From: a virus
Taxonomy: Duplodnaviria; Heunggongvirae; Uroviricota; Caudoviricetes
Virus record (IMG/VR): IMGVR_UViG_2700989400_000004
Span: 6,939-70,938 of that record
Reading direction: 5' to 3' (one strand)
Length of the DNA stretch: 64,000 bases
The notes beneath the pieces are model-generated. The model made no database searches and was not told the origin of the DNA. It saw only the letters and a list, made by a program, of their open reading frames with translations. Shown here piece by piece: positions 1,137-61,674 of the stretch; the first letter of the stretch is position 1, and each line of letters begins with the position of its first letter. The position numbers and the translations under genes are program-made.

Positions 1137-1502
1137 TTACCCATGACTTCCCCCCTGAATGATCCGGTAATCGCAACGGGTCAGCAGTTCGCTAAATTCC
1201 GGCAGTGTTCCGAAACAGCAATCATCACGCAGCCGTTCGCGGGATACCTCGACGCCGTTTTCGTAGTGACTCACCATGCGTCCGGTAAAATGCAGATCAT
1301 CATCGTGATGGTTCGTTAACGGCTTAATAAGTCGCGCACGTTCTGCCAGTTCCAGCAATGCTTCAACGCTTCCGGCAATTGCACCATCCGGCAGGTGATA
1401 ATTACTTACCACGCGTCCATTCTCCACGTTAACCAGTAGCTGCTCGGTGAATTTCTCACGAAACTGAATGCTGTTAAGGTCAGAAATTGACAGGTTATGC
1501 AT
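1137..1502 (-). CDS. hypothetical protein (121 aa)
   Basis: ATG at 1502 preceded by AGGAGG; start overlaps stop of upstream gene (ATGCATAA). Confidence 0.5.
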   Translation of the reverse strand: MHNLSISDLNSIQFREKFTEQLLVNVENGRVVSNYHLPDGAIAGSVEALLELAERARLIKPLTNHHDDDLHFTGRMVSHYENGVEVSRERLRDDCCFGTLPEFSELLTRCDYRIIQGGSHG

Positions 1503-1860
1503 GGTGCACCTCCTGGCGAATACGGGCAGCGAATACCATCACGCAGCCATCAGGAGATTGCTGACGCGCTTCCTGTTCGCTGGTGGCCTCGATGTGAATT
1601 ACGCGCGGTTGTGCTGTGCTCAGGGCGATAAAACGCCAGATAAAATTGTTCTCGCATTTCTGAATAAACAGCGTGTTTTCTTCGCGCCCTTTCCATGTTG
1701 CCGAGATATAGCCCATGTCATTGAGCATCTCGCAGGCATCAACCAGCGTATCAGCGGCTACGTGTACAGTGTTTTTACCGTCAGCTATGCAATCACGGTG
1801 CACCGCCAGGAAGGTGTATATAAATTTAGGGTGAGTTTGGGTATGCTGTGTTCCAGCCAT
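1495..1860 (-). CDS. hypothetical protein (121 aa), internal start of the long 1495..3081 frame
   Basis: ATG at 1860 with GAGGT 7 nt upstream; protein-like translation MAGTQHTQTHPKFIYTFLAVHRDC...; the frame upstream of 1860 is low-complexity. Confidence 0.45.
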   Translation of the reverse strand: MAGTQHTQTHPKFIYTFLAVHRDCIADGKNTVHVAADTLVDACEMLNDMGYISATWKGREENTLFIQKCENNFIWRFIALSTAQPRVIHIEATSEQEARQQSPDGCVMVFAARIRQEVHHA

Positions 1861-1925
1861 AATCGTTACCTCGTTTAACGGTTTGGTTAGACGCCCTGCA
1901 TGTGTGCCACCACTGCGGGGCGTTG

Positions 1926-1960
1926 CTGTATATACACCACAATCATTAGTGTATATACAG
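1926..1960. promoter_or_regulatory. operator-like palindrome in divergent promoter region
   Basis: Perfect 12-bp inverted repeat CTGTATATACAC (1926-1937) / GTGTATATACAG (1949-1960) with 11-bp spacer, between divergent genes ending 1860 and starting 2051; further ACACACC/GGTGT repeats at 2000-2030. Confidence 0.4.
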
Positions 1961-2050
1961 ATTAGATTTAAGTGTGCTACAGTGTCAAGTGTTTTATCAA
2001 CACACCTTTTGGTGTAATGTGTACACACCTCAAAATAACCGGACATTCTG

Positions 2051-2356
2051 ATGGCAACAGGAAACATCAACAGCAGATCGCAAATGAAAAATATCCGCTT
2101 CCCCCATGATGTAATCGAGGAAATGGAAAATTCGAAAACGGAAGGGGAAACAATAGCCGCTTTCGTGATTACAGCCGTTCGCGGTGAAATCGCCCGCCGC
2201 CAGGCAGAAGGAAGCGGAGAAAATCCCCTGGTTTCTTCGCTCGATGCACTGGCGCAGGTGGAAAAAATCGGTGTCAAAGCAGCCGAGGAGATCGGGCAAC
2301 TCGTCACCGTCGCGCGTGAAGAACTCCAGCGGCGCAAGGCCAAAGAACAGGAGTAA
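2051..2356 (+). CDS. small regulator-like protein (possible ribbon-helix-helix), 101 aa
   Basis: Protein-like ORF (…NIRFPHDVIEEMEN…EIGQLVTVAREELQRRKAKEQE); N-terminal beta-strand/helix pattern resembles RHH proteins; weak RBS. Confidence 0.4.
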   Translation: MATGNINSRSQMKNIRFPHDVIEEMENSKTEGETIAAFVITAVRGEIARRQAEGSGENPLVSSLDALAQVEKIGVKAAEEIGQLVTVAREELQRRKAKEQE

Positions 2357-3073
2357 CCATCACCAGCGCCGTGGTGTGAGGAACTACGGTGCATCGTTTT
2401 ACAGGGCAGCGCCATGACCAACAAAGAATCAACCAATACACCATCACCGGCACGGAAAAGACAGCGCAGAAAGATAGCGTACGAGCATGAGTCAGACAGA
2501 TTCGCGCCCTGTGCGTTTATCCTTGAGAAATTCCTTAAAGAGTACAGGCGCACAAAAATGGGGTCGCATACCTGGAAAACATCGCGGCATGGCGATGTTA
2601 AAGAGCAGGAATAGCCCACCAGCAAGCCAGCATATTCACCATAATGACCCTCAGTTAAACCTAGAGTCATTGGTGCAAAGCTGACACATTGCCCACCAGC
2701 CGCAAATGTGGCATTGTTGGTGATGCGTTCAAGTATGTAGCTTTTCCACTGGCGGCTCTCTGCGGTCGCCTTTGTTTTATCCAGAACGAAATCAGACATC
2801 AGATTGATCAGCACCTGGCGACCTGACAAAATCGCATCAGTCGCGCCACCAGCAGTATTTTTTGCTTTCCGGACAGCTTGGCCAACTGCATTTTGCAGCA
2901 AAATATTCTGCATTTCTGGCTTACTGTGATAACAGTGATCAGCGCCTTCACTCTGTACGACCACAACGCTATAATCTGCCTCGTAGACAGTAAGCAATAT
3001 GGCGCAGTAAGCGACTTGTTCACAAAGGCGCTCCGGCAACGGGGCGCTTTTTCTTTTTGTAACGGTCAGAGCA

Positions 3074-3874
3074 TTACACATGGCTGTTTTCCTCCATGCG
3101 ACGGGCTAACCAACGCTGCGAAAGACGAATTAATTCAGCTTTCCGCTGGTGGTAGTCCTGGCCTAACTCAATCAGCGTGATATTGCTCTGCTCAAGGTAA
3201 GAAAGATGCTCAAGCTGCAACGTGCTCATGTGGTCGCGTGGTTCGCCTGTGATGCCGTTCGCCTGCGCCCACTGTTTTGCAGTCATGCCACCCAGCACGA
3301 TACGCGCCAGCATATTGGCTTCCGTGGTGTAGTGGTGCTGTAGAGTGTTTTTACCCAGCTCAGCCCGGTACGCCTCCAGCGCGGCACACATTGGCTTAAA
3401 GTAGCTGGCAACTGTGATACGGGCTTTCAGTTCCCGGCGTAACACTGCGGAACGCACTGGCGCTACCTTGTGTAGCTCCTCCTCGCATTTGATAAAGTAC
3501 TGACGAACGGCGCGGCCCTGTTCGGTGCGTTCGACCATCGCCAGTTCTTTCGCCATGTTCACTGTGATGATGTACTCAAGAGCTGTTTGCTGGCGAGATT
3601 TTGCGCTCACCGGATCGGGTCGGCTCAAATATTCAACAACCTCATAATCCACGCCTTCCGTGAACCCGTATTCTTCAATGCGCCCCTTGATCCACGAACG
3701 GAAAACGCGCCCTACACCTAACGCCTTATGTAACGCTCTGGCGCTAACAATAGTGGTTTCACGCCCACCAATAACGCCGGAAATAACCGGAATAATTTCA
3801 GCGAAATTTTGCAGATTCTGTTTTTCAGGCCGAACGAAGCCCCGCCCCTGTACAGGCGTATATCCAGTATTCAT
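3074..3874 (-). CDS. phage antirepressor-like protein (Ant/KilAC-type)
   Basis: 266-aa ORF with N-terminal motif ALHKALGV…FRSWIK…YGFTEGVDY typical of phage antirepressor N-domains; sits downstream of alpA in the island. Confidence 0.5.
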   Translation of the reverse strand: MNTGYTPVQGRGFVRPEKQNLQNFAEIIPVISGVIGGRETTIVSARALHKALGVGRVFRSWIKGRIEEYGFTEGVDYEVVEYLSRPDPVSAKSRQQTALEYIITVNMAKELAMVERTEQGRAVRQYFIKCEEELHKVAPVRSAVLRRELKARITVASYFKPMCAALEAYRAELGKNTLQHHYTTEANMLARIVLGGMTAKQWAQANGITGEPRDHMSTLQLEHLSYLEQSNITLIELGQDYHQRKAELIRLSQRWLARRMEENSHV

Positions 3875-3926
3875 GGTTAAATCTCTGTATTAGTGGATGG
3901 GAGGCGGCTGTGTGCCGCCAGCCTGA

Positions 3927-4115
3927 TTAGTGAACTGCCTCGCGGCTGTCCTTCCATGCCAGAACTTCGGATAAAGACCAGCCAACGGAACGACCACCGA
4001 GTTTACGCCGTGATGGGAATTGTCCGGCTTTTTCCAGGCGGTAGCGGCATGAACGGCTCAGGCCTGTAAGTTGCTGACATTCTTTTTCACGTATAAAGCG
4101 ATCTGTGCTTAACAC
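3927..4115 (-). CDS. alpA: AlpA-family phage transcriptional regulator
   Basis: 62 aa, GTG start with AGGGGGA SD; motif LTGLSRSCRYRLEKAGQFPSRRKLGGRSVGWSLSEVLAW matches AlpA/Vis HTH family; immediately downstream of integrase. Confidence 0.7.
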   Translation of the reverse strand: MLSTDRFIREKECQQLTGLSRSCRYRLEKAGQFPSRRKLGGRSVGWSLSEVLAWKDSREAVH

Positions 4116-4478
4116 AATTCCCCCTTTGTTGTTTCTTAAAGAGTCATTGGGTGGATTATTGGGTTGGGTCGGATTGTGTCAGGGTGTTTATGGAATGGCA
4201 AACACTGGTGGCGGTCGTTTTACAGAAGTGGGGTAATGAGAATAAAAACTTTTTTAATTCATTGTGATGCAGTAGCGTAAAATTCTGTTTTTACGCCCTT
4301 TTTTACATGCTTTTAAGAGTGATTCGCCAATGTACAAAAAGCCAGTAAAACGACTGAAAATCAACTTTTTAGGGTGTCGGTCAGATGATAATCAAGTTTG
4401 TTCCAGATTGTTCGCCGTTGTTCGTCGTGGTGTCTCGTTGTTTCACGTTGTGTCCGTTCTGAAAAATCGCGAAAAAAA

Positions 4479-5729
4479 TTATATTTCTCTGGCTATTGGC
4501 AGTGTGGTTACGTTTTCGTGAGCACCTGCCAGTATCTCTAATCGCTCTGTCCACATATCCAGCGCGTTACGTTTCGCATCAATATAGCGGGAGTGGTTAT
4601 AGACTCGTTGCATCCCTGGCATCTGGTGGGCGGTAAGTTGCTCGACAATATGCGGATCCACGCCTAAATCGTTCAGCATCGTGGTAAACGTGCGCCGTAT
4701 ATCGTGCAGGGACCAGTGAGGATGGTTTAATTTTTTGTGCGTAAATCTGCCGTATTGTGACACGCTGGCTTCCTGTTTCAGTTCTCCGAGTAATAACCCT
4801 GTGTGCCTGTTCTGCTCCACCAGTTGCGTGACGAACGGCAAAATGCTTTCCGGTATTGGCCTGAATATGGCGACCTTCGTTTTGCTGTGTTCTTTCGGTA
4901 CCGTCCAGAGCATTTCCTTAAAATCCCACTCCCTGATCTCCGACAGCCTCAGTTCTCCAGTTCGGCAGCCAAACACAATCAGGAGGCGGATTAGCGCGCT
5001 GTAGTAGGGCGGGAATATTTTTTTATCCAGCGCCTGTAATAATTCGCCCAGTTCTTTGTTACTAAGCACGCGTTCGCTTATGCCTGGCTTTTTGCCAACG
5101 TCCACCACGTTGAGATCATCCAGAACGTTACTGACTGCGTAGCGACGTTTTCGGCAGAACTTAAGCGCCTGTTTACACGCCTGCATCATGTGACCAGACG
5201 TTACAGGGGATTTTTTGCGTATCCGGTCAAAACAGGCCAGCCAGTGACGTAACTCGCATTTATCCAGTGGCATATTGCCAATATGCTGTATGACGTGATT
5301 ATTCAGGCGGCTGTTCAGGGAGACGTAATCGACACGGTTTTCCTTTACGTGCATTTCCAGCCAGTAGCTGATCGCATCACCCACCGTTACCGGCTTTAGT
5401 GCTTCCTGTATGGAGTAATTAAGCTCATGGCGTGGATTTTTTCCTTCTGCCAGCCATGCGCGACACTGTGCCGCTTTTTCCCTGGCTGCTTTCAGGCTCA
5501 GATCAGGATAATTTCCCAGCTTCAGGCGTTCCGGTGATACCAGGCGTCCAGCTCCTGCCCTGTAGGTGAAATACCAGGTTAACAAGCCGCTGGTGGAATG
5601 CCTGACGCTCAGGTTTCCACCGTCATTAAGAAATGTGGTTTTTGGGGCTGGTGTGCCGTTGATTTTTCTTAGCTGTGTATCGCTCAGTTTGTTAAGTGCT
5701 CTGCTCATAATTTTGAATCCGGTCATCAC
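4479..5729 (-). CDS. int: P4-type tyrosine integrase (site-specific recombinase)
   Basis: 416-aa ORF; N-terminal arm-type domain (LSDTQLRKINGTPAPK…YPDLSLKAAREKAAQCRAWLAEGKNP) and C-terminal catalytic domain (…HDIRRTFTTML…); GTG at 5729 or ATG at 5726. Confidence 0.85.
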   Translation of the reverse strand: MMTGFKIMSRALNKLSDTQLRKINGTPAPKTTFLNDGGNLSVRHSTSGLLTWYFTYRAGAGRLVSPERLKLGNYPDLSLKAAREKAAQCRAWLAEGKNPRHELNYSIQEALKPVTVGDAISYWLEMHVKENRVDYVSLNSRLNNHVIQHIGNMPLDKCELRHWLACFDRIRKKSPVTSGHMMQACKQALKFCRKRRYAVSNVLDDLNVVDVGKKPGISERVLSNKELGELLQALDKKIFPPYYSALIRLLIVFGCRTGELRLSEIREWDFKEMLWTVPKEHSKTKVAIFRPIPESILPFVTQLVEQNRHTGLLLGELKQEASVSQYGRFTHKKLNHPHWSLHDIRRTFTTMLNDLGVDPHIVEQLTAHQMPGMQRVYNHSRYIDAKRNALDMWTERLEILAGAHENVTTLPIAREI

Positions 5730-38974: not shown

Positions 38975-39277
38975 TTACTCCGCGATCTTACCGATCTTGC
39001 TCATCTTCCACTCGTTCCCATGATGGCAATTACATGGCTTGTGTATTGACCGGACTGTTTCGAATTTCTCATTAATGATGTATGCCTCCGCATGTTCAGG
39101 AATATCCACCGTCGCCCAGCCGCCGTGCTCGTCCAGTACGCCCTTAACCTTCATTTGATATTTGCCAAAAACGTTTTCTTTTATTACGGAAAATGAAGGT
39201 GATAACTCAAAGTAATCCTCACTTTCTTTTAAAATTGTGTCGGTATGTTCTTTAACAATTAATTTCAGGAATAGCAT
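38975..39277 (-). CDS. hypothetical protein (100 aa) downstream of lysis cassette
   Basis: Protein-like ORF with CNCHHG motif; no recognisable family. Confidence 0.4.
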   Translation of the reverse strand: MLFLKLIVKEHTDTILKESEDYFELSPSFSVIKENVFGKYQMKVKGVLDEHGGWATVDIPEHAEAYIINEKFETVRSIHKPCNCHHGNEWKMSKIGKIAE

Positions 39278-54883: not shown

Positions 54884-55321
54884 AATCTTTTCTCCTTAGT
54901 TAAAATCATGTTTGCTACATTTCAGTAGCGACCAGATTGTTAAAGAGAATGGCTTAACATCGTTCAACTAATCCCGCAATCATCGCCGTTTCCGGTGTGA
55001 CACCACTCAATCCAAGTGATCTGACTCGTCGCCTTGCGTGCGGTTTCGTGGGGGATGTAACGCTTTAAACACCCCATGCGCCTTGTTATCAGTGCCGCTT
55101 TCGGTCCCACATCGGGGAGTTACTCCACGGTTGACAAGGTGTTAAGCCTGATTTTTAAAGTGCCTGGAAGGTGTTTTTGTTTCCTGTCTCCTTCCTTTGA
55201 CTCGCAATATACGCCCTGTGATATGTCGAGTCAATCCATTTTGTATACTTTTTTAAAATATTTTCTATCTCATTGATATTTAAATGATAAAACCCGTTCT
55301 CGGTTTACATTTTGGTGCTTT

Positions 55322-55348
55322 CTGGGCAAAGAAAAGCCGCCATCCGGC
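55322..55348 (-). terminator. intrinsic terminator after repressor gene
   Basis: GCCGCC-ATCC-GGCGGC hairpin with T-run on minus strand, 10 nt after repressor stop. Confidence 0.45.
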
Positions 55349-55357
55349 GGCTAATGT

Positions 55358-56005
55358 TTATGGCAGATTTACGATCTTCGCGTCCACCACCACGCCAATA
55401 ATTTTTGATTCAGGATTTAGCGGGATTGGTGGATACAACGGATTAAGCGAACGTAAAAGCCTTTGACCTCCATCAATAATCAACTGTTTAAACGTCGGCG
55501 TTTGCCCTTCCTCCAATTGGGCTATAACCAGTTTGCCGTCAATAGCTGGCGCGTGTGGATCAACAAGTATCATCGTTCCCGCCGGGATGCTCAATCCTTG
55601 CGGCGCGTTCATCGATTCACCTTTTGCAACCAGCCAATAACTATCATCCGAACAAATCACGCTAGTGTTAACGTGCGGTAATGATGCGCGTTTTGCTTCT
55701 TCCATGTAGTTTCCTGCGTCTTTCCAGTCAATCACCGGATAACGCCCTACGTCGAGCGGTGGCGCTCCCGGCAGTGTATTAGAAAGTGAATCATCAATAA
55801 CCATCCCATCATGTGTGACCGTAAACTGCCGACGACCAAGCGCCCGCATGATCCGCGCAATATCTTCCAGGTTAGGCTCACGACGACCATTTAGCCAGTG
55901 TGATAAGCCGCCCTTTGTGATCCCCATGAGATCCGCCAATGAATCCTGGCTCATACCTTGCGCCCGCATGAGTTGTTTAGCTAAGTCATACCATTTTGTT
56001 TTCAT
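55358..56005 (-). CDS. cI-like repressor (HTH + LexA-type S24 peptidase domain)
   Basis: N-terminal HTH (…QDSLADLMGITKGGLSHWLNGRREP…) and C-terminal autocleavage domain (…VAKGESMNAP…AGTMILVD…); divergent from replication operon. Confidence 0.8.
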   Translation of the reverse strand: MKTKWYDLAKQLMRAQGMSQDSLADLMGITKGGLSHWLNGRREPNLEDIARIMRALGRRQFTVTHDGMVIDDSLSNTLPGAPPLDVGRYPVIDWKDAGNYMEEAKRASLPHVNTSVICSDDSYWLVAKGESMNAPQGLSIPAGTMILVDPHAPAIDGKLVIAQLEEGQTPTFKQLIIDGGQRLLRSLNPLYPPIPLNPESKIIGVVVDAKIVNLP

Positions 56006-56313
56006 GTCGCTACCCTATCGCCCTAAAAAGTTTGATGCAAGTCACAAAATGTATTTTTCAAGTCTTGACCTAAAAACGCCATTCTGTAAACTTGCAGACA
56101 AGGTAAAGCCAGACTTGCAAGGATGCAAGAAAAAAGATAAGGGAATAGCACAAAAAGGCGCATACCTTAAAAGCTCTTTAAAAACCCGGTGTCGCTGCGA
56201 AGCGAAAAACAAATATCACGCAACGGCGGGATCTGTTGAGCGGTCAATCACTGCTATCTAATGCTAATGGGATACCCGCCCGCGCGTTCATTTTAACCAT
56301 AGGAGAAAAATCA
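56006..56313. promoter_or_regulatory. divergent immunity promoter/operator region
   Basis: 308-bp gap between divergent repressor and rightward operon; repeated CTTGCAAG-type palindromic half-sites (56036-56130); no cro-sized ORF found. Confidence 0.5.
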
Positions 56314-56568
56314 ATGAGTATGCACATGATGACTGAAGCCTGGAAAGTGGAACTTAACAGCCCGATTCAAAAACTTGTCTTAATGGCTTTGGCTGAAAAG
56401 GCGGATAACCGCCGCCACGCCAGGGTGTCACACCAAGAAATCGCAAAAATGTGTGAACTTCCTGTAAATACGGTAATGGTTGCTATCGACGGATTAACGC
56501 ACAAAGGATTTATTTGTAACCCTTACCCGGTAAATGACGTTTACCTGGTAATGCTGCCGGAGGAATGA
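56314..56568 (+). CDS. HTH DNA-binding protein, first gene of rightward operon (Cro/CII position)
   Basis: 85 aa from MSMHMMTEAW…; AGGAG SD; HTH-like …HQEIAKMCELPVNTVMVAIDGL…. Confidence 0.5.
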   Translation: MSMHMMTEAWKVELNSPIQKLVLMALAEKADNRRHARVSHQEIAKMCELPVNTVMVAIDGLTHKGFICNPYPVNDVYLVMLPEE

Positions 56569-56571
56569 TCC

Positions 56572-57639
56572 ATGAAGTGGTTTAAGCATGATAGCGATGC
56601 GAACCGCGATGAAAAACTTCAAAACGTTTTGCTCGATTATGGTCTGGAAGGATACGGTCTTTATTGGTACTGCCTCGAACTAATCACTTATGACGTAGAT
56701 CAGCATAATCTCACTTTCGACCTTCGACATGACGCGAGAATCATCGCGCGAAATGTCGGTTCGACTGAAAAACGTGTAGAAGAAATGATGAAATACTTCA
56801 TCGAAATTGGTTTATTTGAATGTTCTCAAGGCCATATAACATGCTTAAAGTTATTGAAAAGGCTGGACCAATCAATGACTTCTAAGAGTGGTTACAGAGC
56901 TGCTATAAATGCAGCAAAAGAACAATTCAAATTAGAAAAGTTAATCAACCCAACGCCAAAAGGTCATGATAGGGTCATGACCGGGTCATGGCAGGGTCAT
57001 GAATTAGAATTAGAAGAAGAATTAGAAGAAGAAATAGAAAAAGATATATACACTTCGTGTATTAGCGAAAATGAACAAAAAACGGTCAATCAGGGGGGTG
57101 ACTTTCAGATAAGCGAAGCCGCCTTGCGTTGTCTGGCTTTCTACAACGAAAAAGCAGGATGCAAATGTCGTGACGCTAAACCATTCATCGAACTACTGAC
57201 AGAAACAAAAACACGTAAGGCATATACGGAGGAAGAGATCACATTAGTAATTGAGTGGGCTTTAACACAATGGCATAGCCGGAGTGGAGTACCTAAGCCT
57301 ATCAACATTTGCCGGGTAACTAAGTTTGATGGGTATCTGGCTGATGCTGAACAATGGCGAAGAGTTACAGCTACTGTTAACGCTGCTGTCGTGGTATCAG
57401 CATTTAACCAGACATTTGACGGCCTGTTACCGCCTGCCGAACTGGATCGGGATTTGGAACGTAAGATCTATGCGTTCACTGACTACCTGAAAGACAAAAG
57501 CATCACTGGCTTTATCGCTTACTTTGAAGCGTTCAAAAACACGGCTTCAGATTTTTACTTCGGCAATGGCTTTACCGCGACACTTGATTTCCTACTTAAA
57601 CCAAAAACGCTACGTGACACGCGCGCGGGCGTTCTTTGA
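56572..57639 (+). CDS. replication initiator / replisome organizer (O-like)
   Basis: N-terminal MKWFKHDSDANRDEKL… typical of phage replisome-organizer N-domains; conserved phage replication C-terminal region; contains iterons. Confidence 0.75.
   Translation: MKWFKHDSDANRDEKLQNVLLDYGLEGYGLYWYCLELITYDVDQHNLTFDLRHDARIIARNVGSTEKRVEEMMKYFIEIGLFECSQGHITCLKLLKRLDQSMTSKSGYRAAINAAKEQFKLEKLINPTPKGHDRVMTGSWQGHELELEEELEEEIEKDIYTSCISENEQKTVNQGGDFQISEAALRCLAFYNEKAGCKCRDAKPFIELLTETKTRKAYTEEEITLVIEWALTQWHSRSGVPKPINICRVTKFDGYLADAEQWRRVTATVNAAVVVSAFNQTFDGLLPPAELDRDLERKIYAFTDYLKDKSITGFIAYFEAFKNTASDFYFGNGFTATLDFLLKPKTLRDTRAGVL
56961..57050 (+). repeat. putative replication origin: four iterons plus AT-rich tract inside O-like gene
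   Basis: GGGTCATG repeated four times at 11-bp spacing (56962-57001), then aattagaattagaagaagaattagaagaagaaatagaaaaag. Confidence 0.6.
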
Positions 57640-57772
57640 CTATCCATTATTACCAAAAAACCAAAATTACCCACAAAACAAGCTCACCAGCGAGCTAAAT
57701 CGCATGGGGTGCTACACTTGCTTACCTTTTTGCGATTAGCTCGTTAGAAAGCGATTGAGGGAGGATTTAGCT

Positions 57773-57874
57773 ATGAACGGTAAACGCATGTTCGCCCTGG
57801 CTTTCGCGATCGCGATGGCTATCGCTGTTAACGTGATGCTGTTCGGCGGGTTGTACCTGCTTGCGCATCCATAA
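57773..57874 (+). CDS. small hydrophobic membrane peptide (33 aa)
   Basis: MNGKRMFALAFAIAMAIAVNVMLFGGLYLLAHP; GAGGGAGG SD; preceded by long imperfect inverted repeat (57691-57743). Confidence 0.4.
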   Translation: MNGKRMFALAFAIAMAIAVNVMLFGGLYLLAHP

Positions 57875-58025
57875 CTACCCAGCCTGATTAAATTCGATTT
57901 TAAGCCACTTTTTAGCGCCACTGACGCAATAAGACACTGCAACATGTGCAAACGTGTTACGCGGTGGGATTTTGCGTTGTAGCGCGTCTGAGGCGTTATA
58001 TAGAAAATTAAGAAAGGAGGTATAT

Positions 58026-59081
58026 ATGATTGCTACTTATCATATGAAACTCAATTGTAAGGACACGCAATTACTGTCTGTTAATAATCTGGTTTCTGAA
58101 CTTAAGATTGATAGACTTAAATCATTTGTTAAATATTCTGATCTTTACGGATTTGAGGAATACAAGGATTTTATTATTGATGGTGATGATGTGTATATCA
58201 CACCTATAACGTTTATTAGATTCGTTACACCTGGTAAATATAGACATTATGAATATAATGAAAATTGGGTTAAGCCAGTTATTGAATCTTGTGGATTAGT
58301 TGACTTGCAAGATGTCTTTAATAAATATTCAAATAATACCAAAAAAGATAGTCCTTACGCTTATAATTATATTTTATGGTGTAACAACTATGTTGAAACG
58401 AGTGATACTCCTGGTCGATGTTCTGTGTATGTGTCAAAAGAAGATGCTGAAAAGTATAAAAAATGGTTGTTCGTTACTCGCGGAGTATCAATAGAAAAAC
58501 TATGGGTAAGGTTGTTCCATTCAAGCGATATTGCAGATCCAGATACGTTTTTAGCTGAACACCTCAATAATGATGAGTTTACCATTGATTTAAATATTGA
58601 ATATTTTATAGTTAAAACAAATTATGGATATGAAAGGTATATTAGCGATAAGATAGCAGAAAAGTATCATATATGGGGTGAAAGTAAAGGGCTTAGTAAT
58701 AATTTTGAGTGCGGGAATTATAACGACATAGAAAACTTTATTAAATTAAAAAGCGACAAGGATGTAATTGAGGAAATAAAAAAGGAATGCGACGCGAAAT
58801 TATCAGAAATGAGCGGTCATTGTAAAAATATGATTAGAAAGCGTTATGAACACGCTGGTTTAACTATGTATGAAAAACTAAAGGGTGTTAAATTAATAAG
58901 GCAATATCCTGTTAATGTTGCTGGCAATAAGTATTTTATCGATGGCTACGATCCTGTGAATAATGTTGCTGTAGAAATTGATGAATCACATCACAAACGG
59001 CAAGTAAAAAGCGATGCGATAAGACAAAAATGCATTGAAGATTATTTGGGGTGCAAGTTTTTTCGTTGTGCTATATCCTGA
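58026..59081 (+). CDS. AT-rich gene: protein with C-terminal restriction-endonuclease-like domain (candidate defence/abortive-infection protein)
   Basis: 351 aa from MIATYH…; perfect AGGAGG SD; visibly AT-rich versus flanks; C-terminus …YFIDGYDPVNNVAVEIDESHHKRQVKSDAIRQKCIEDYLGCKFFR… resembles DUF559/Vsr-type endonuclease fold. Confidence 0.6.
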   Translation: MIATYHMKLNCKDTQLLSVNNLVSELKIDRLKSFVKYSDLYGFEEYKDFIIDGDDVYITPITFIRFVTPGKYRHYEYNENWVKPVIESCGLVDLQDVFNKYSNNTKKDSPYAYNYILWCNNYVETSDTPGRCSVYVSKEDAEKYKKWLFVTRGVSIEKLWVRLFHSSDIADPDTFLAEHLNNDEFTIDLNIEYFIVKTNYGYERYISDKIAEKYHIWGESKGLSNNFECGNYNDIENFIKLKSDKDVIEEIKKECDAKLSEMSGHCKNMIRKRYEHAGLTMYEKLKGVKLIRQYPVNVAGNKYFIDGYDPVNNVAVEIDESHHKRQVKSDAIRQKCIEDYLGCKFFRCAIS

Positions 59082-59115: not shown

Positions 59116-60234
59116 ATGTCACAAAGAAAGATCAGCGATGAACAACTGATCGCTGAGTACGAGAAGGGGAAAACTTACAAGCAAATAGCCGAAGAATATG
59201 GAATGGCAAAACGCAACGTCGAACGGCTGGGCGCACGGCTGGCGAAGCGCGGTTTAATATCCACACGCCGCGCGCCTGGTTTTGGTGTCAATGGTGAATC
59301 ATTGCTCGTTGATAAGGATGGCAATGTGATTATGCGCTGGATTAAAACAGCACGTGATCGCGATGAAATGGAAAGGCTAATGCAAGCGGCTTGCGATGCA
59401 TTCACTGAAGAGATACCCCGCGCGGAGGCCGTGCCAGTGCCTGAGATTGATTTCCAAAAAAGCCTGGCCCTTTATCCGGTGTTCGATCTTCATATCGGTG
59501 CACTTGCGCACAAGGCGGAATGCGGCGAGAGCTACGACACCGGGATCGCTGAACGCGTACTAAATGATTTCTTCGACTACGCGGTAGGCACTGCGCCAAT
59601 GTCTGAAAAGGCTGTTTTGCTGTTGGGTGGGGATCTACTTCATTCTGATGGGATGATCCCGGTTACACCAACAAGCGGTCATATTCTTGATCAGGATAGT
59701 CGCTACGCAAAACTTGTTTACGTGGCGATCCGGTCGGTCCGGCGGGCGGTCGGGAAGATGTTACTAAATCATAAGGACGTCGAGATCCAGGTGCTTAGCG
59801 GAAATCATGATCAATCGGGGATGATTTGGCTACGTGCGGCGCTGGCGGCTTTTTACGAAGATGAACCACGCGTGACGGTTGATGTGTCCCCTGCTATCGT
59901 CCACCACACGCAGTACGGCAAAACATTCCTTGCCTATCATCACGGGCACACTATCAAAAAACCCGAAAATTTGTTGGCGGCCTGCATCTCTGACTGGCGG
60001 GAGGATTTCGGCAAGTCGGCGGCGGTTTACGCCCACTGCGGGCACTGGCACCACCAACGGCTAATTGAATCATCGTTAGGCGTTGTTGAGTATCACGGCA
60101 CGTTAGCGGGTAAAGACGCTTATTCAACGAATGGCGGCTGGCGGTCGCGGCGGCTGGCGGCGGTAATAATTTACAGCCCGGATTATGGGGAAATCGGGCG
60201 CTTTGTTTATTACCCTGAATATCCCATTTTGTAA
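59116..60234 (+). CDS. HTH domain fused to calcineurin-like metallophosphoesterase
   Basis: N-terminal HTH (…KTYKQIAEEYGMAKRNVERL…); phosphoesterase motifs DLHIG, GGDLLH, GNHD, GHWHH; CCGGAGG SD. Confidence 0.6.
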   Translation: MSQRKISDEQLIAEYEKGKTYKQIAEEYGMAKRNVERLGARLAKRGLISTRRAPGFGVNGESLLVDKDGNVIMRWIKTARDRDEMERLMQAACDAFTEEIPRAEAVPVPEIDFQKSLALYPVFDLHIGALAHKAECGESYDTGIAERVLNDFFDYAVGTAPMSEKAVLLLGGDLLHSDGMIPVTPTSGHILDQDSRYAKLVYVAIRSVRRAVGKMLLNHKDVEIQVLSGNHDQSGMIWLRAALAAFYEDEPRVTVDVSPAIVHHTQYGKTFLAYHHGHTIKKPENLLAACISDWREDFGKSAAVYAHCGHWHHQRLIESSLGVVEYHGTLAGKDAYSTNGGWRSRRLAAVIIYSPDYGEIGRFVYYPEYPIL

Positions 60235-60252: not shown

Positions 60253-61674
60253 ATGGTGACTGAGCAAATAAACTCATTACGCCAGGAACGGGAAGCGGCT
60301 GTGATAGGCGGCCTCCTGTTGGGCGGGCTTACCCCTAACGCGCAAGATGTTCTTGCCACGCTCGATCCTGAAGTCTTCACCATTCCACTATATAAACGAG
60401 CGTTTGAGATCATCCGGGCGCAAGCCAGAAACAGAAACCTTATTGACGCGCTGATAGTCGGTGATGAAATCGGTAGCGAAAATTTCATCCCGTTAATGCA
60501 AACGGCGCGGTCGTGTCCATCTGCTGCCAACCTGAAGGGGTACGCCACGCTATTGCAGGAGGAATACCAGCGGCGGCAAATGTTGGAACTGATGGAGGAT
60601 ATCCGCTACAAACTGGAAACCGGGACGCTAGAAGTTGTCAGAGAGACGATGAAATATTTTGATTCCCGGTATTCAAAATTAAAAACAACGAAAGACAAGA
60701 TTATTCCGGTGCTGTTGCGCGACGCGGTACAGGAATATACGGAAGTCTTAAGTAAACGTATGGAATGTGGTGTCAATTCTGACAACATCAAAACAGGGAT
60801 CGAACCACTCGACGAAATGTTAGGCGGTATTAACGCTACTGATCTGGTGCTTATCGCCGGACGCCCTGGGTCTGGTAAATCGGCGTTGGCGTTGGCAATT
60901 GCCCGCGCGGCGGCTGAACGTCCATACCCTGGCGGAGAAGGCCAACGGGTCGGCGTTTTGCTGTTCACGCTTGAAATGTCGCTCGATCAGATGACTGAAC
61001 GCGCGATCGCTGGCGCTGGGAACTTATCAACGGATTGCCTACGTAATCCGGTAAAACTGGACGACGAAGGATGGGCGCACGTTGCGCAGGGAATGAGCGC
61101 ACTTGCCGATCTCGACGTGTGGATTGTTGACGCATCGCAGTTAACGGTCGAGGAAATACGCGCCACCGTCGAACGGATGAAACAGGACCATCCTAACCTG
61201 GGAATGGTAATGATTGACTACATCGGGTTAATGAAGCTGGCTAAGGCCGAACGTCATGATCTCGCGGTAGGGCAATTGTCGTGGTCATTGAAAATGATGG
61301 CGAAAGAGTTGCGCGTGCCAGTGGCGGCGCTGGCGCAATTATCCCGCCGCGTTGAAGAACGACCGAACAAGCGCCCGAACAATTCCGATCTGCGTGATTC
61401 CGGTAATCTGGAACAAGACGCGGACCGGATCATCATGGTCTACCGAGACGGCTACTACAACGAACAATCAGTTGCCCGCGAATACATGGAGATCATCGTT
61501 TCAAAAAACCGTCACGGGAAAACGGGGACTGTTTACCAGCGGTTTGACGATAACGGCAATATCATTCCATGCGACCAGGCCCGCGCCGCGTCCGCTTGCA
61601 TCCAGTCAATGCAACAACGTCCGGCGACAAGCCGATTCTCCCCACGAAATAACCAGAATAACGCATCTTTTTAA
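60253..61674 (+). CDS. DnaB-family replicative helicase
   Basis: Walker A …LIAGRPGSGKSALALAIA…, …DSGNLEQDAD…, …KNRHGKTG…; CCGGAGG SD. Confidence 0.85.
   Translation: MVTEQINSLRQEREAAVIGGLLLGGLTPNAQDVLATLDPEVFTIPLYKRAFEIIRAQARNRNLIDALIVGDEIGSENFIPLMQTARSCPSAANLKGYATLLQEEYQRRQMLELMEDIRYKLETGTLEVVRETMKYFDSRYSKLKTTKDKIIPVLLRDAVQEYTEVLSKRMECGVNSDNIKTGIEPLDEMLGGINATDLVLIAGRPGSGKSALALAIARAAAERPYPGGEGQRVGVLLFTLEMSLDQMTERAIAGAGNLSTDCLRNPVKLDDEGWAHVAQGMSALADLDVWIVDASQLTVEEIRATVERMKQDHPNLGMVMIDYIGLMKLAKAERHDLAVGQLSWSLKMMAKELRVPVAALAQLSRRVEERPNKRPNNSDLRDSGNLEQDADRIIMVYRDGYYNEQSVAREYMEIIVSKNRHGKTGTVYQRFDDNGNIIPCDQARAASACIQSMQQRPATSRFSPRNNQNNASF

What the first reader, a model, noticed from the sequence alone, without database searches (positions are those of the whole stretch)
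56955..57050. Iteron-type origin embedded in the replication initiator gene
Four GGGTCATG repeats at exactly 11-bp spacing followed by an AT-rich tract with GAATTAGAA repeats lie in the linker between the two domains of the O-like protein, the same logic as lambda ori inside O.
Basis: partly seen in the sequence, partly recalled or inferred. Interest (0 to 1): 0.45.

Follow-up and report, generated by a model that had tools for sequence, protein, structure and literature searches.

The report
Predicted phage origin inside initiator gene
A short array of evenly spaced DNA repeats followed by an easily melted A+T-rich stretch, lying inside a prophage replication gene, is most likely that phage's replication origin: a familiar lambda-like layout, but in an uncharacterised initiator family that shows the same signature in many bacteria.

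Summary
GGTCATG occurs at 56962, 56973, 56984 and 56995, exactly 11 bp apart. The first copy is AGGTCATG, not GGGTCATG. A 50-bp tract follows (57001-57050), 80% A+T and 80% purine. No other such array exists in the 64-kb window, and none appeared in 300 random windows.

The array lies in the predicted disordered linker (aa 124-176) of a 355-aa protein. That protein has a Lin1244_N (DUF4373) winged-helix N-domain and a C-terminal domain shared with mEp021-type coliphage initiators. A DnaB-type helicase gene lies downstream.

Selection acts on the DNA, not the peptide:
- The four copies use all three reading frames.
- In 44 distant homologues, TCATGA-type sites are about 50-fold enriched in the same linker.
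- Those sites are spaced 11, 21 or 32 bp apart, which matches helical phasing.
- Synonymous positions inside them are fixed, and a purine/A+T-rich tract always follows.
- Other N-domain subfamilies and alleles carry different repeats at the same place.

Best reading: a lambda-like origin embedded in its initiator gene. It is analogous to lambda O, with no detectable homology, and no experiment exists. It is a new member of a known kind, of moderate interest, mainly because it gives DUF4373 a testable function.

The parts
56962..57002 (.). Array of four 11-bp units with the core GGTCATG(A) at 56962, 56973, 56984 and 56995. These are the putative initiator-binding sites.
   Evidence: unique in the window; 0 of 300 random windows. 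The copies fall in frames 0, 2, 1 and 0 of the ORF. Nucleotide diversity among 29 distinct close alleles is 0.008-0.027 here, against 0.05-0.22 in the flanking linker. Homologous TCATGA arrays occur in 44 distant genes.
57001..57050 (.). A+T-rich, purine-rich tract made of GAATTA/GAAGAA units, the candidate DNA-unwinding element. It also encodes the acidic ELELEEELEEEIEKDIY part of the linker.
   Evidence: 80% A+T, 80% purine, least stable 50-mer in the gene. GAATTA copy number varies among relatives; an equivalent tract follows the last repeat in 43-44 of 44 distant genes; the lambda ori A+T tract is likewise purine-rich on the coding strand.
56572..57639 (+). Replication initiator gene, 355 aa. 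The Lin1244_N winged-helix N-domain is aa 1-123 (56572-56940). The disordered linker is aa 124-176 (56941-57099). The C-terminal domain is aa 177-355 (57100-57639).
57100..57639 (+). C-terminal domain shared at 84-88% DNA identity with the mEp021-type ('B-type') initiators, which have a different N-domain and different repeats. It is presumed to be the helicase/replisome-recruiting module. The cassette junction lies at about 57100-57124.
   Evidence: the B-type phages match only query positions 875/889 onward.
60253..61674 (+). DnaB-family replicative helicase gene of the same early operon, the presumed partner loaded at the origin.
   Evidence: Pfam DnaB_C 8.7e-76 and DnaB N-domain 1.8e-11. 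The synteny is the same in relatives.
56314..56568 (+). 84-aa HTH_36 protein encoded immediately upstream of the initiator gene. It is allele-specific and its role is unknown. It is probably not the protein that binds the repeats.
   Evidence: its recognition-helix region varies among A-type phages although the repeats stay constant; absent upstream of distant homologues that keep the TCATGA arrays.

Best explanation
The segment 56962-57050 is the vegetative (theta-type) replication origin of an mEp021-like (mEpimmI-group) temperate prophage of E. coli. It is embedded in the part of the initiator gene that codes for a disordered interdomain linker.

Proposed mechanism:
1. The initiator's N-terminal winged-helix domain (Lin1244_N/DUF4373) binds the four TCATGA-core sites. 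(Inferred.)
2. At 11-bp spacing, the sites lie on one face of the helix, so the bound proteins form a compact nucleoprotein complex. (The spacing is shown; the complex is inferred.)
3. The strain this creates, perhaps aided by transcription running through from the early rightward promoter, melts the adjacent 50-bp tract of 80% A+T. (Inferred.)
4. The C-terminal domain, shared with initiator alleles of different specificity, recruits the phage's own DnaB-type helicase (60253-61674). No P- or DnaC-like loader is evident, as in phage P22 genes 18/12. (Inferred.)

What is shown is the anatomy, the DNA-level selection, the family-wide conservation and the fold.
For: 1. Anatomy. Four phased repeats are followed by the least stable tract of the gene, inside a predicted disordered linker between two folded domains.

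2. DNA-level rather than peptide-level constraint. In the window the copies use frames 0, 2, 1 and 0, and codon resampling gives p of about 4e-5. In 44 distinct distant homologues, TCATG[AC] occurs 129 times in 8.8 kb of linker against 7 times in 25.6 kb elsewhere. Of the 44 genes, 41 use at least two frames. Spacings are 11 bp (41 cases), 21 bp (27) and 32 bp (7). Codon choice inside the sites is nearly fixed: His is CAT in 55 of 56 cases against 110 of 192 elsewhere, Val is GTC in 52 of 53 against 76 of 470, and Ile is ATC in 16 of 16 against 184 of 722. Fisher tests give 1e-10, 5e-35 and 5e-10.

3. A purine/A+T-rich tract follows the repeats in 43-44 of the 44 genes.

4. The repeats change with the protein. 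The 'DEYT' subfamily of Lin1244_N carries GTCCCGA/TCGGGA repeats, again often 11 bp apart. The A2 allele has five CCATG sites at 11 bp. The B-type allele (mEp021) has an HTH_36 N-domain and four 22-23-bp GGTAGTGNCA units plus an A+T-rich tract, on the same C-domain.

5. The array is among the least diverse parts of the gene, even though the rest of the linker is the most diverse part.

6. The N-domain model has a winged-helix fold shared with replication initiators.

7. Context fits: the cI-like repressor, initiator and DnaB helicase lie in lambda/P22-like order.

8. Lambda ori has the same order of elements and the same strand asymmetry (PMC7466680).
Against: - There are no experimental data for this phage group or for any Lin1244_N protein. 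The mEpimmI genome paper does not mention an origin.
- The protein is not detectably homologous to lambda O.
- The predicted 'recognition' helix (aa 66-78) is rather acidic, so how the domain would read DNA is unclear.
- Co-variation is imperfect. One natural allele (P0014/L121) joins an A2-like N-domain (aa 1-100) to TCATGA repeats.
- In most close relatives the third unit is degenerate (GGGTCAGGAAA in 23 of 29 alleles).
- A few distant homologues (L095, L105, L107) have no obvious repeats.
- The low-diversity argument is not unique to the array. Two other segments of the gene are equally conserved.
- The A+T/purine-rich tract also encodes an acidic linker, so part of its composition could be selected at the protein level.
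Confidence: 0.75

Rival explanations
1. The repeats are genuine binding sites for the initiator, but their role is regulatory: autorepression by roadblock, or copy control by handcuffing. The site where replication actually starts lies elsewhere in the prophage.
For: Plasmid and phage initiators often bind repeats for autoregulation (general knowledge). The DNA-level selection found shows that the sites are bound, not what happens after binding.
Against: The repeats are invariably followed by the least stable A+T/purine-rich tract, which regulation does not need. No other repeat array was found in the neighbouring intergenic regions, and no other equally spaced array exists in the window. The layout matches the proven lambda ori element for element (PMC7466680).
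Confidence: 0.1
2. The sites are bound by another factor, such as the allele-specific 84-aa HTH_36 protein encoded just upstream or a host protein. They would then serve something other than initiator-driven origin firing.
For: The small HTH_36 gene has A- and B-type alleles that travel with the initiator alleles. HTH_36 is the kind of N-domain found in lambda-O-like initiators (PMC5509034).
Against: Within A-type phages the small protein's helix-turn-helix region varies a great deal while the repeats stay constant. Sixteen distant loci that keep TCATGA arrays have unrelated genes upstream and no such protein. The only protein element that always accompanies the repeats is the Lin1244_N domain. 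No DnaA boxes lie nearby.
Confidence: 0.06
3. The repeats and the A+T-rich tract are by-products of coding for a low-complexity, slippage-prone linker (GHDRVMTGS..., ELELEEE) and have no function as DNA.
For: The GAATTA/GAAGAA units have periods of 6 and 12 nt, stay in frame, vary in copy number and encode an acidic linker. The segment is predicted to be disordered.
Against: The 11-bp period is out of frame, so the same DNA word is read in three frames and yields no peptide repeat. Synonymous positions inside the sites are essentially fixed across 44 distant genes. Resampling codons for the window's own peptide reproduces the array in only 4e-5 of trials. Non-conservative changes (W/G/R/C) occur in the spacers while the cores are kept.
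Confidence: 0.03
4. The functional feature is a hairpin or cruciform formed by the palindromic cores, for example a single-strand initiation or priming signal, rather than an array of duplex binding sites.
For: TCATGA is self-complementary. As single-stranded DNA, units 1+2 and units 3+4 pair, giving dG -11.9 and z -3.4 against shuffles.
Against: The stems are only 6-8 bp. Relatives with a degenerate third unit lose the second hairpin. Distant homologues keep the helical phasing of 11, 21 or 32 bp rather than any constant stem-loop geometry. The DEYT-subfamily repeats are mostly direct.
Confidence: 0.03

Closest known systems
Phage lambda ori inside gene O (and the lambdoid and Stx-phage variants)
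   Same: The origin lies in the middle of the initiator gene. Four direct repeats are followed, on the coding strand, by an A+T- and purine-rich tract. Both fall in the linker between a DNA-binding N-domain and a C-terminal domain that recruits the helicase machinery. The gene sits just downstream of the immunity region and is transcribed from the early rightward operon (PMC7466680; PMC5509034).
   Different: No sequence or profile similarity to O was detected. The N-domain is Lin1244_N, not Phage_rep_O/HTH_36. The sites have 7-8-bp cores in 11-bp units one helical turn apart, whereas lambda has 18-19-bp palindromic iterons about 20-24 bp apart. There is no P-like loader; the phage carries its own DnaB-type helicase.
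Phage P22 gene 18 (initiator with an internal ori) plus gene 12 (DnaB-type helicase): the 'initiator-helicase' replication module
   Same: The origin is embedded in the initiator, the phage encodes its own DnaB-family helicase, and no separate loader is present. This rests on my own knowledge of the P22 literature (Weigel and Seitz 2006 classification) and was not checked here.
   Different: P22 gp18 is a lambda-O-type protein. The window's initiator belongs to a different domain family. An exonuclease-like gene and a variable slot lie between the initiator and the helicase.
mEp021-type ('B-type') initiator allele of the same phage group (mEp021, mEp554, mEp044, mEp010, mEp013)
   Same: Same genomic position and same C-terminal domain (84-88% DNA identity from about 57110 onward). 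It also has four direct repeats plus an A+T-rich tract in the linker.
   Different: The N-domain is HTH_36, as in lambda-O-like proteins. The repeats are 22-23-bp units of GGTAGTG(N)CA... The whole block of N-domain, repeats and A+T tract is exchanged as one cassette.
Replisome-organiser genes with internal origins in phages of Gram-positive bacteria (SPP1 G38P/oriL, lactococcal TP901-1 and Tuc2009), and the predicted ori in the Phg_2220_C gene fhv_0043 of Francisella phage KIRK
   Same: Repeats plus an A+T-rich region lie inside the gene for the origin-binding protein. The KIRK prediction was made by the same kind of sequence reasoning (PMC7924643; SPP1: PMC5737612). The lactococcal examples come from my own knowledge.
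   Different: The N-terminal domain families and repeat sequences differ. None of these has helically phased TCATGA sites.

Membership tests
Origin embedded in the initiator gene (lambda-type: repeats plus A+T-rich unwinding tract) | Three or more direct repeats clustered within about 100 bp | tested here: met
   Four GGTCATG cores at exact 11-bp spacing. This is the only such array in the window, and 0 of 300 random windows contained one.
Origin embedded in the initiator gene (lambda-type: repeats plus A+T-rich unwinding tract) | An A+T-rich, easily melted tract directly next to the repeats | tested here: met
   57001-57050 is 80% A+T and is the least stable 50-mer of the gene, 3.3 sd below the gene mean. 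The same tract is present in 43 of 44 distant genes.
Origin embedded in the initiator gene (lambda-type: repeats plus A+T-rich unwinding tract) | Located in the initiator ORF, between the DNA-binding domain and the domain that recruits the replisome | tested here: met
   Lin1244_N covers aa 3-87. The disordered linker is aa 124-176 and covers the array. The C-domain is shared with the B-type initiators.
Origin embedded in the initiator gene (lambda-type: repeats plus A+T-rich unwinding tract) | Repeat sequence co-varies with the initiator's DNA-binding domain | tested here: inconclusive
   Co-variation is clear between subfamilies and between the A1, A2 and B alleles. However, the P0014/L121 allele combines an A2-like N-domain with A1 repeats.
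Origin embedded in the initiator gene (lambda-type: repeats plus A+T-rich unwinding tract) | The initiator binds the repeats, and the fragment supports initiator-dependent replication | not testable with these tools
   This needs EMSA or footprinting and a plasmid replication assay. No published data were found.
Lambda O protein family (Pfam Phage_rep_O, PF04492) | Significant match to the family profile or to lambda O itself | tested here: not met
   No Phage_rep_O hit, whereas lambda O scores 5.7e-36. BLASTP against lambda O gives E 0.28. hhalign gives probability 0.1%.
Lin1244/Lin1753-like N-terminal domain (Pfam PF14297, formerly DUF4373) | Profile match above the gathering threshold | tested here: met
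   44.3 bits against a cutoff of 25, E 3e-11, aa 3-87. RefSeq names relatives 'Lin1244/Lin1753 domain-containing protein'.
Conserved phage C-terminus (Pfam Phg_2220_C, PF09524), the C-domain type reported for lambda O by HHpred (PMC5509034) | Profile match above the gathering threshold | tested here: inconclusive
   14.6 bits against a cutoff of 27, E 0.035, though the match covers profile positions 3-72 of 73. A distant homologue with the same N-domain and TCATGA repeats has a clear Phg_2220_C domain, E 3e-25 (L052).
Classical iterons (plasmid or lambda type) | Repeat units of about 17-22 bp, spaced about two helical turns apart | tested here: not met
   The units are 11 bp with a 7-8-bp conserved core. 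Distant relatives use spacings of 11, 21 and 32 bp. By contrast the B-type allele has 22-23-bp units.
mEpimmI (mEp021-like) group of temperate coliphages | Nucleotide similarity and synteny of the immunity and replication module | tested here: met
   84-86% identity over the whole 1.46-kb query to phages mEp515 and MagusPhagus, and 93.7% to the E. coli UMNK88 prophage. The order cI, HTH gene, rep, exonuclease-like gene, DnaB is the same (PMC11893012).

The most novel reading that the evidence does not exclude
Lin1244_N/DUF4373 is a previously uncharacterised, phylum-spanning class of origin-binding domain whose cognate sites are always written into its own gene. These are short cores (TCATGA in one subfamily, TCCCGA/TCGGGA in another) phased by whole helical turns of 11, 21 or 32 bp, read in several reading frames, and followed by a purine-strand A+T tract. 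This would make it a self-contained cis/trans origin cassette that recombines with different C-terminal recruiting domains. One-turn phasing of very short sites would also imply that the initiator assembles along one face of the DNA, a different geometry from lambda O dimers on 19-bp palindromes.
Probability: 0.55. Interest if true: 0.5.

Novelty: new member of a known kind. Interest (0 to 1): 0.4.

Why it matters
- It would locate the replication origin of the mEpimmI coliphages. The paper describing this group calls it prevalent in the human gut and describes no origin.
- It would give a concrete, testable function to a widespread domain of unknown function (DUF4373/Lin1244_N): origin recognition.
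- It would supply a simple sequence rule for annotating origins in hundreds of Vibrio, Pseudoalteromonas, Pantoea, Escherichia and metagenomic phages. The rule is phased short repeats in several reading frames plus a purine/A+T tract straight after the domain.
- The naturally swapped cassettes (A1, A2 and B) on one C-terminal domain are ready-made material for studying origin specificity and replication incompatibility between co-resident prophages.
- It does not change the concepts. The architecture is the textbook lambda one.

Tried and rejected
- Rfam scan of 55000-59000 on both strands at E up to 1: no hits.
- DnaA-box scan (TTWTNCACA): five sites in the window, none near the array and no more than chance.
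- Sigma-70 promoter and terminator scan of 55900-57950: counts not above shuffled controls. Only a weak candidate promoter at 56065-56092.
- Homology to lambda O by BLASTP and hhalign: none.
- PDB sequence search: nothing significant.
- NCBIfam: no hit for the initiator.
- Literature searches for DUF4373, Lin1244 or PF14297 together with origin or replication: nothing relevant.
- Alternative ori-like repeat arrays in the neighbouring intergenic regions 54900-55400, 55990-56330 and 57630-57970: none.
- The small HTH_36 protein as the repeat binder: considered and judged unlikely.
- Pure protein-coding origin of the repeats: rejected on frame and codon evidence.
- Nucleotide diversity as stand-alone proof: weak, because two other segments of the gene are equally conserved.

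Full report
**1. The observation**

Window 56955-57050 reads ...AAAAGGTCATGATAGGGTCATGACCGGGTCATGGCAGGGTCATGAATTAGAATTAGAAGAAGAATTAGAAGAAGAAATAGAAAAAGATATATA. GGTCATG starts at 56962, 56973, 56984 and 56995, exactly 11 bp apart. TRF reports period 11 and 3.7 copies.

Three copies are GGGTCATG and the first is AGGTCATG. The core TCATGA is its own reverse complement, so each direct repeat is also an inverted repeat. As single-stranded DNA, units 1+2 and 3+4 can pair.

The tract 57001-57050 follows directly:
- It is built of GAATTA/GAAGAA units.
- It is 80% A+T and 80% purine on the top strand.
- It is the least stable 50-mer of the gene (dG -50.7, against a mean of -65.1 and sd 4.3).
- It is the fourth least stable non-overlapping 50-mer of the whole 64-kb window.

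Chance does not explain the array:
- It is the only 7-mer repeated four times at equal spacing in the window.
- None occurred in 300 first-order Markov random windows.
- With the encoded peptide held fixed, synonymous resampling using the prophage's codon usage reproduced four copies in 78 of 2,000,000 trials.

**2. Context**

The window is E. coli DNA carrying a prophage next to abgR/abgAB.

The array lies in ORF 56572-57639 (355 aa):
- Pfam finds Lin1244_N (DUF4373) at aa 3-87, E 3e-11.
- PHROGs places the protein in phrog_20981, with weaker hits to 'replication initiation protein / O-like' families.
- The C-terminal half gives only a sub-threshold Phg_2220_C match, E 0.035.

Gene order around it:
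- Upstream: a cI-like S24 repressor (55358-56005, minus strand) and an 84-aa HTH_36 protein (56314-56568).
- Downstream: a variable-slot gene (57954-59081), an exonuclease-like gene (59116-60234) and a DnaB-family helicase (60253-61674).

The module is 84-86% identical to phages mEp515 and MagusPhagus and 93.7% identical to a prophage of E. coli UMNK88. These belong to the mEpimmI (mEp021-like) group described in PMC11893012. That paper says nothing about an origin or iterons.

**3. Structure**

AlphaFold2 on a 67-sequence alignment gives three parts:
- a folded N-domain;
- a segment with pLDDT below 50 at aa 124-176;
- a confident C-terminal domain (pLDDT about 90 for aa 180-230).

The low-confidence segment corresponds to 56941-57099, which encloses the repeats and the A+T tract.

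- CRP/FNR DNA-binding domains;
- a multidrug-resistance plasmid replication initiator, 4pta;
- the ORC2 winged-helix domain;
- the DnaD N-terminal domain.

This supports the fold. It does not show which surface would contact DNA. The canonical recognition helix (aa 66-78) is rather acidic, and I regard that as an open point.

**4. Selection acts on the DNA, not on the peptide**

In the window the four copies fall in frames 0, 2, 1 and 0: GGT CAT GAT / AGG GTC ATG ACC / GGG TCA TGG / GGT CAT GAA. The DNA repeat therefore produces no peptide repeat.

Among 29 distinct close alleles:
- The spacer between units 3 and 4 changes non-conservatively (W/G/R/C, Q/K) while the cores are kept.
- Nucleotide diversity is 0.008-0.027 across the array. 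It is 0.05-0.11 just upstream and 0.10-0.22 in the rest of the linker, which is the most variable part of the gene.
- Two other segments of the gene are equally conserved, so this argument alone is weak.
- In 23 of the 29 alleles the third unit is degenerate (GGGTCAGGAAA). The window and its nearest relatives are unusual in having four perfect cores.

**5. The signature is family-wide**

This is the strongest evidence. Scanning IMG/VR and GTDB genomes with the family alignment returned 108 loci. In phages and MAGs whose N-domain is only 37-72% identical, and whose C-terminal regions differ, the stretch right after the domain (anchor peptide SMTSN) carries 2-6 copies of (A/G)TCATGA(C/T). A tract such as CATGCAAGATAAGATTAGATTAGATAAGAAT follows.

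Across 44 distinct distant genes:

| Measure | In the linker / inside the sites | Elsewhere in the genes | Fisher p |
|---|---|---|---|
| TCATG[AC] occurrences | 129 in 8,800 nt | 7 in 25,578 nt | n/a |
| His codon is CAT | 55 of 56 | 110 of 192 | 1e-10 |
| Val codon is GTC | 52 of 53 | 76 of 470 | 5e-35 |
| Ile codon is ATC | 16 of 16 | 184 of 722 | 5e-10 |

- 41 of the 44 genes use at least two reading frames for the motif.
- Spacings between sites are 11 bp (41 cases), 21 bp (27) and 32 bp (7), that is one, two and three helical turns.
- The 40 nt after the last site average 75% A+T and 77% purine, against 60% and 59% for the genes. The tract is more purine-rich than its gene in all 44 cases.

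The 'peptide motif' HD.VMT.S..MQDKIRLDKN seen in these proteins is therefore best read as the shadow of a DNA element.

**6. The repeats change with the DNA-binding module**

- A second Lin1244_N subfamily (anchor DEYT.K; Planctomycetota, Bacteroidota, CPR and other MAGs) carries GTCCCGA(C/G)A / TGTCGGGA repeats at the same place, often again 11 bp apart. A purine-rich AGAAGAGAAGAG tract follows.
- A Helicobacteraceae homologue has GAGTCAGGAGT three times.
- Within the E. coli phage group, an A2 allele with a variant N-domain has five CCATG sites at 11 bp.
- The B-type allele (mEp021, mEp554, mEp044, mEp010, mEp013) replaces the whole N-domain with an HTH_36 domain. It replaces the array with four 22-23-bp GGTAGTG(N)CA units plus an A+T-rich tract. 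The same C-terminal domain is kept from about window 57100-57124 onward.

This is the modular pattern known from lambdoid O genes.

The co-variation is not perfect. The natural allele P0014 (locus L121) has an A2-like N-domain (aa 1-100) with TCATGA repeats. Three distant homologues (L095, L105, L107) show no repeats.

**7. Which protein binds?**

The upstream HTH_36 protein also comes in A and B types. Two observations argue against it as the binder:
- Within A-type phages its helix-turn-helix region varies widely although the repeats are constant.
- The 16 distant loci checked have unrelated genes upstream.

The Lin1244_N domain is the only protein element that always accompanies the repeats. 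This is inference by co-occurrence, not a demonstration.

**8. Comparison with what is known**

Lambda ori lies in the middle of gene O. It has four iterons, and an A+T-rich tract follows them (PMC7466680). I confirmed this on the lambda record. The iterons are at 39034-39118, followed by AAAAGACACTATTACAAAAGAAAAAAGAAAAGATTATT, which is also purine-rich on the coding strand.

The window's element has the same order, the same orientation and even the same number of sites.

The protein, however, is not a detectable homologue of O:
- no Phage_rep_O hit;
- BLASTP E 0.28;
- hhalign probability 0.1%.

The sites are 7-8-bp cores one helical turn apart, not 19-bp palindromes.

Because the phage has its own DnaB-type helicase and no evident loader, the module resembles P22 genes 18/12 (my own knowledge). 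Similar in-silico predictions of an origin inside a Phg_2220_C replication gene exist, for example Francisella phage KIRK (PMC7924643).

I found no paper linking DUF4373/Lin1244 to an origin.

**9. Verdict**

It is a new member of a well-known kind of element, an origin embedded in the initiator gene.

The added value is a clear, family-wide signature at the DNA level that assigns a testable function to DUF4373. Origin firing, binding and helicase recruitment remain inferred. The experiments listed under next steps would settle them.

Noticed in passing
L003:2800-2920 (mEp021); also L005-L008; junction at about window 57100-57124: mEp021-type phages carry an alternative origin/initiator cassette at the same position. 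It has an HTH_36 N-domain, four GGTAGTG(N)CA units 22-23 bp apart and an A+T-rich tract, fused to the same C-terminal domain as the window's gene.
   Followed up: partly
L041:2924-2978 and L044 (IMG/VR contigs); proteins P0017, P0019-P0022, P0025: A third allele (A2) has a variant Lin1244_N domain and five CCATG(G) sites at 11-bp spacing in place of TCATGA. One natural recombinant (P0014, locus L121) pairs the A2-like N-domain with TCATGA repeats.
   Followed up: partly
window 57954-59081 (+): A 375-aa ORF of only about 30% G+C sits in a slot between the initiator and the exonuclease-like gene. Relatives carry different genes there (Ant, zinc-ribbon and others). Its last 60 aa or so give partial hits to DUF559/PvuRts1I-like endonucleases and to PADLOC mREase_II (E 5e-8). 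It may be an accessory or defence gene.
   Followed up: partly
window 57774-57875 (+): A 33-aa hydrophobic ORF (MNGKRMFALAFAIAMAIAVNVMLFGGLYLLAHP) with a GGAGG ribosome-binding site. ORFs of the same 102-nt length are annotated at the same place in mEp515, mEp554 and other relatives.
   Followed up: no
window 56314-56568 (+): An 84-aa HTH_36 protein is encoded immediately upstream of the initiator. It resembles the N-terminal domain of lambda-O-like initiators and has A- and B-type alleles that travel with the initiator alleles. Its function is unknown.
   Followed up: partly
window 57001-57024 and the aligned positions in L001, L010, L011, L012: The number of GAATTA hexamers (Glu-Leu codon pairs) at the start of the A+T tract varies from one to five among close relatives. 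This looks like replication slippage and changes the length of the A+T tract.
   Followed up: partly
L105, L107 (Treponema and Lachnospiraceae MAGs) and L095 (Cellvibrionaceae MAG): These Lin1244_N homologues have no recognisable repeat array after the domain. They are exceptions to the family-wide pattern. Their origin may lie elsewhere, or the genes may have been domesticated.
   Followed up: no
window 55233-55300: This is one of the two least stable stretches of duplex in the window (20-30% G+C). It lies just downstream of the 3' end of the cI-like repressor gene and contains no direct repeats.
   Followed up: partly
window 1495-5729: Host abg genes (abgB, abgA, abgR) flank a tyrosine integrase (4479-5729, minus strand). 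This identifies the window as an E. coli chromosome with a prophage integrated next to abgR.
   Followed up: partly
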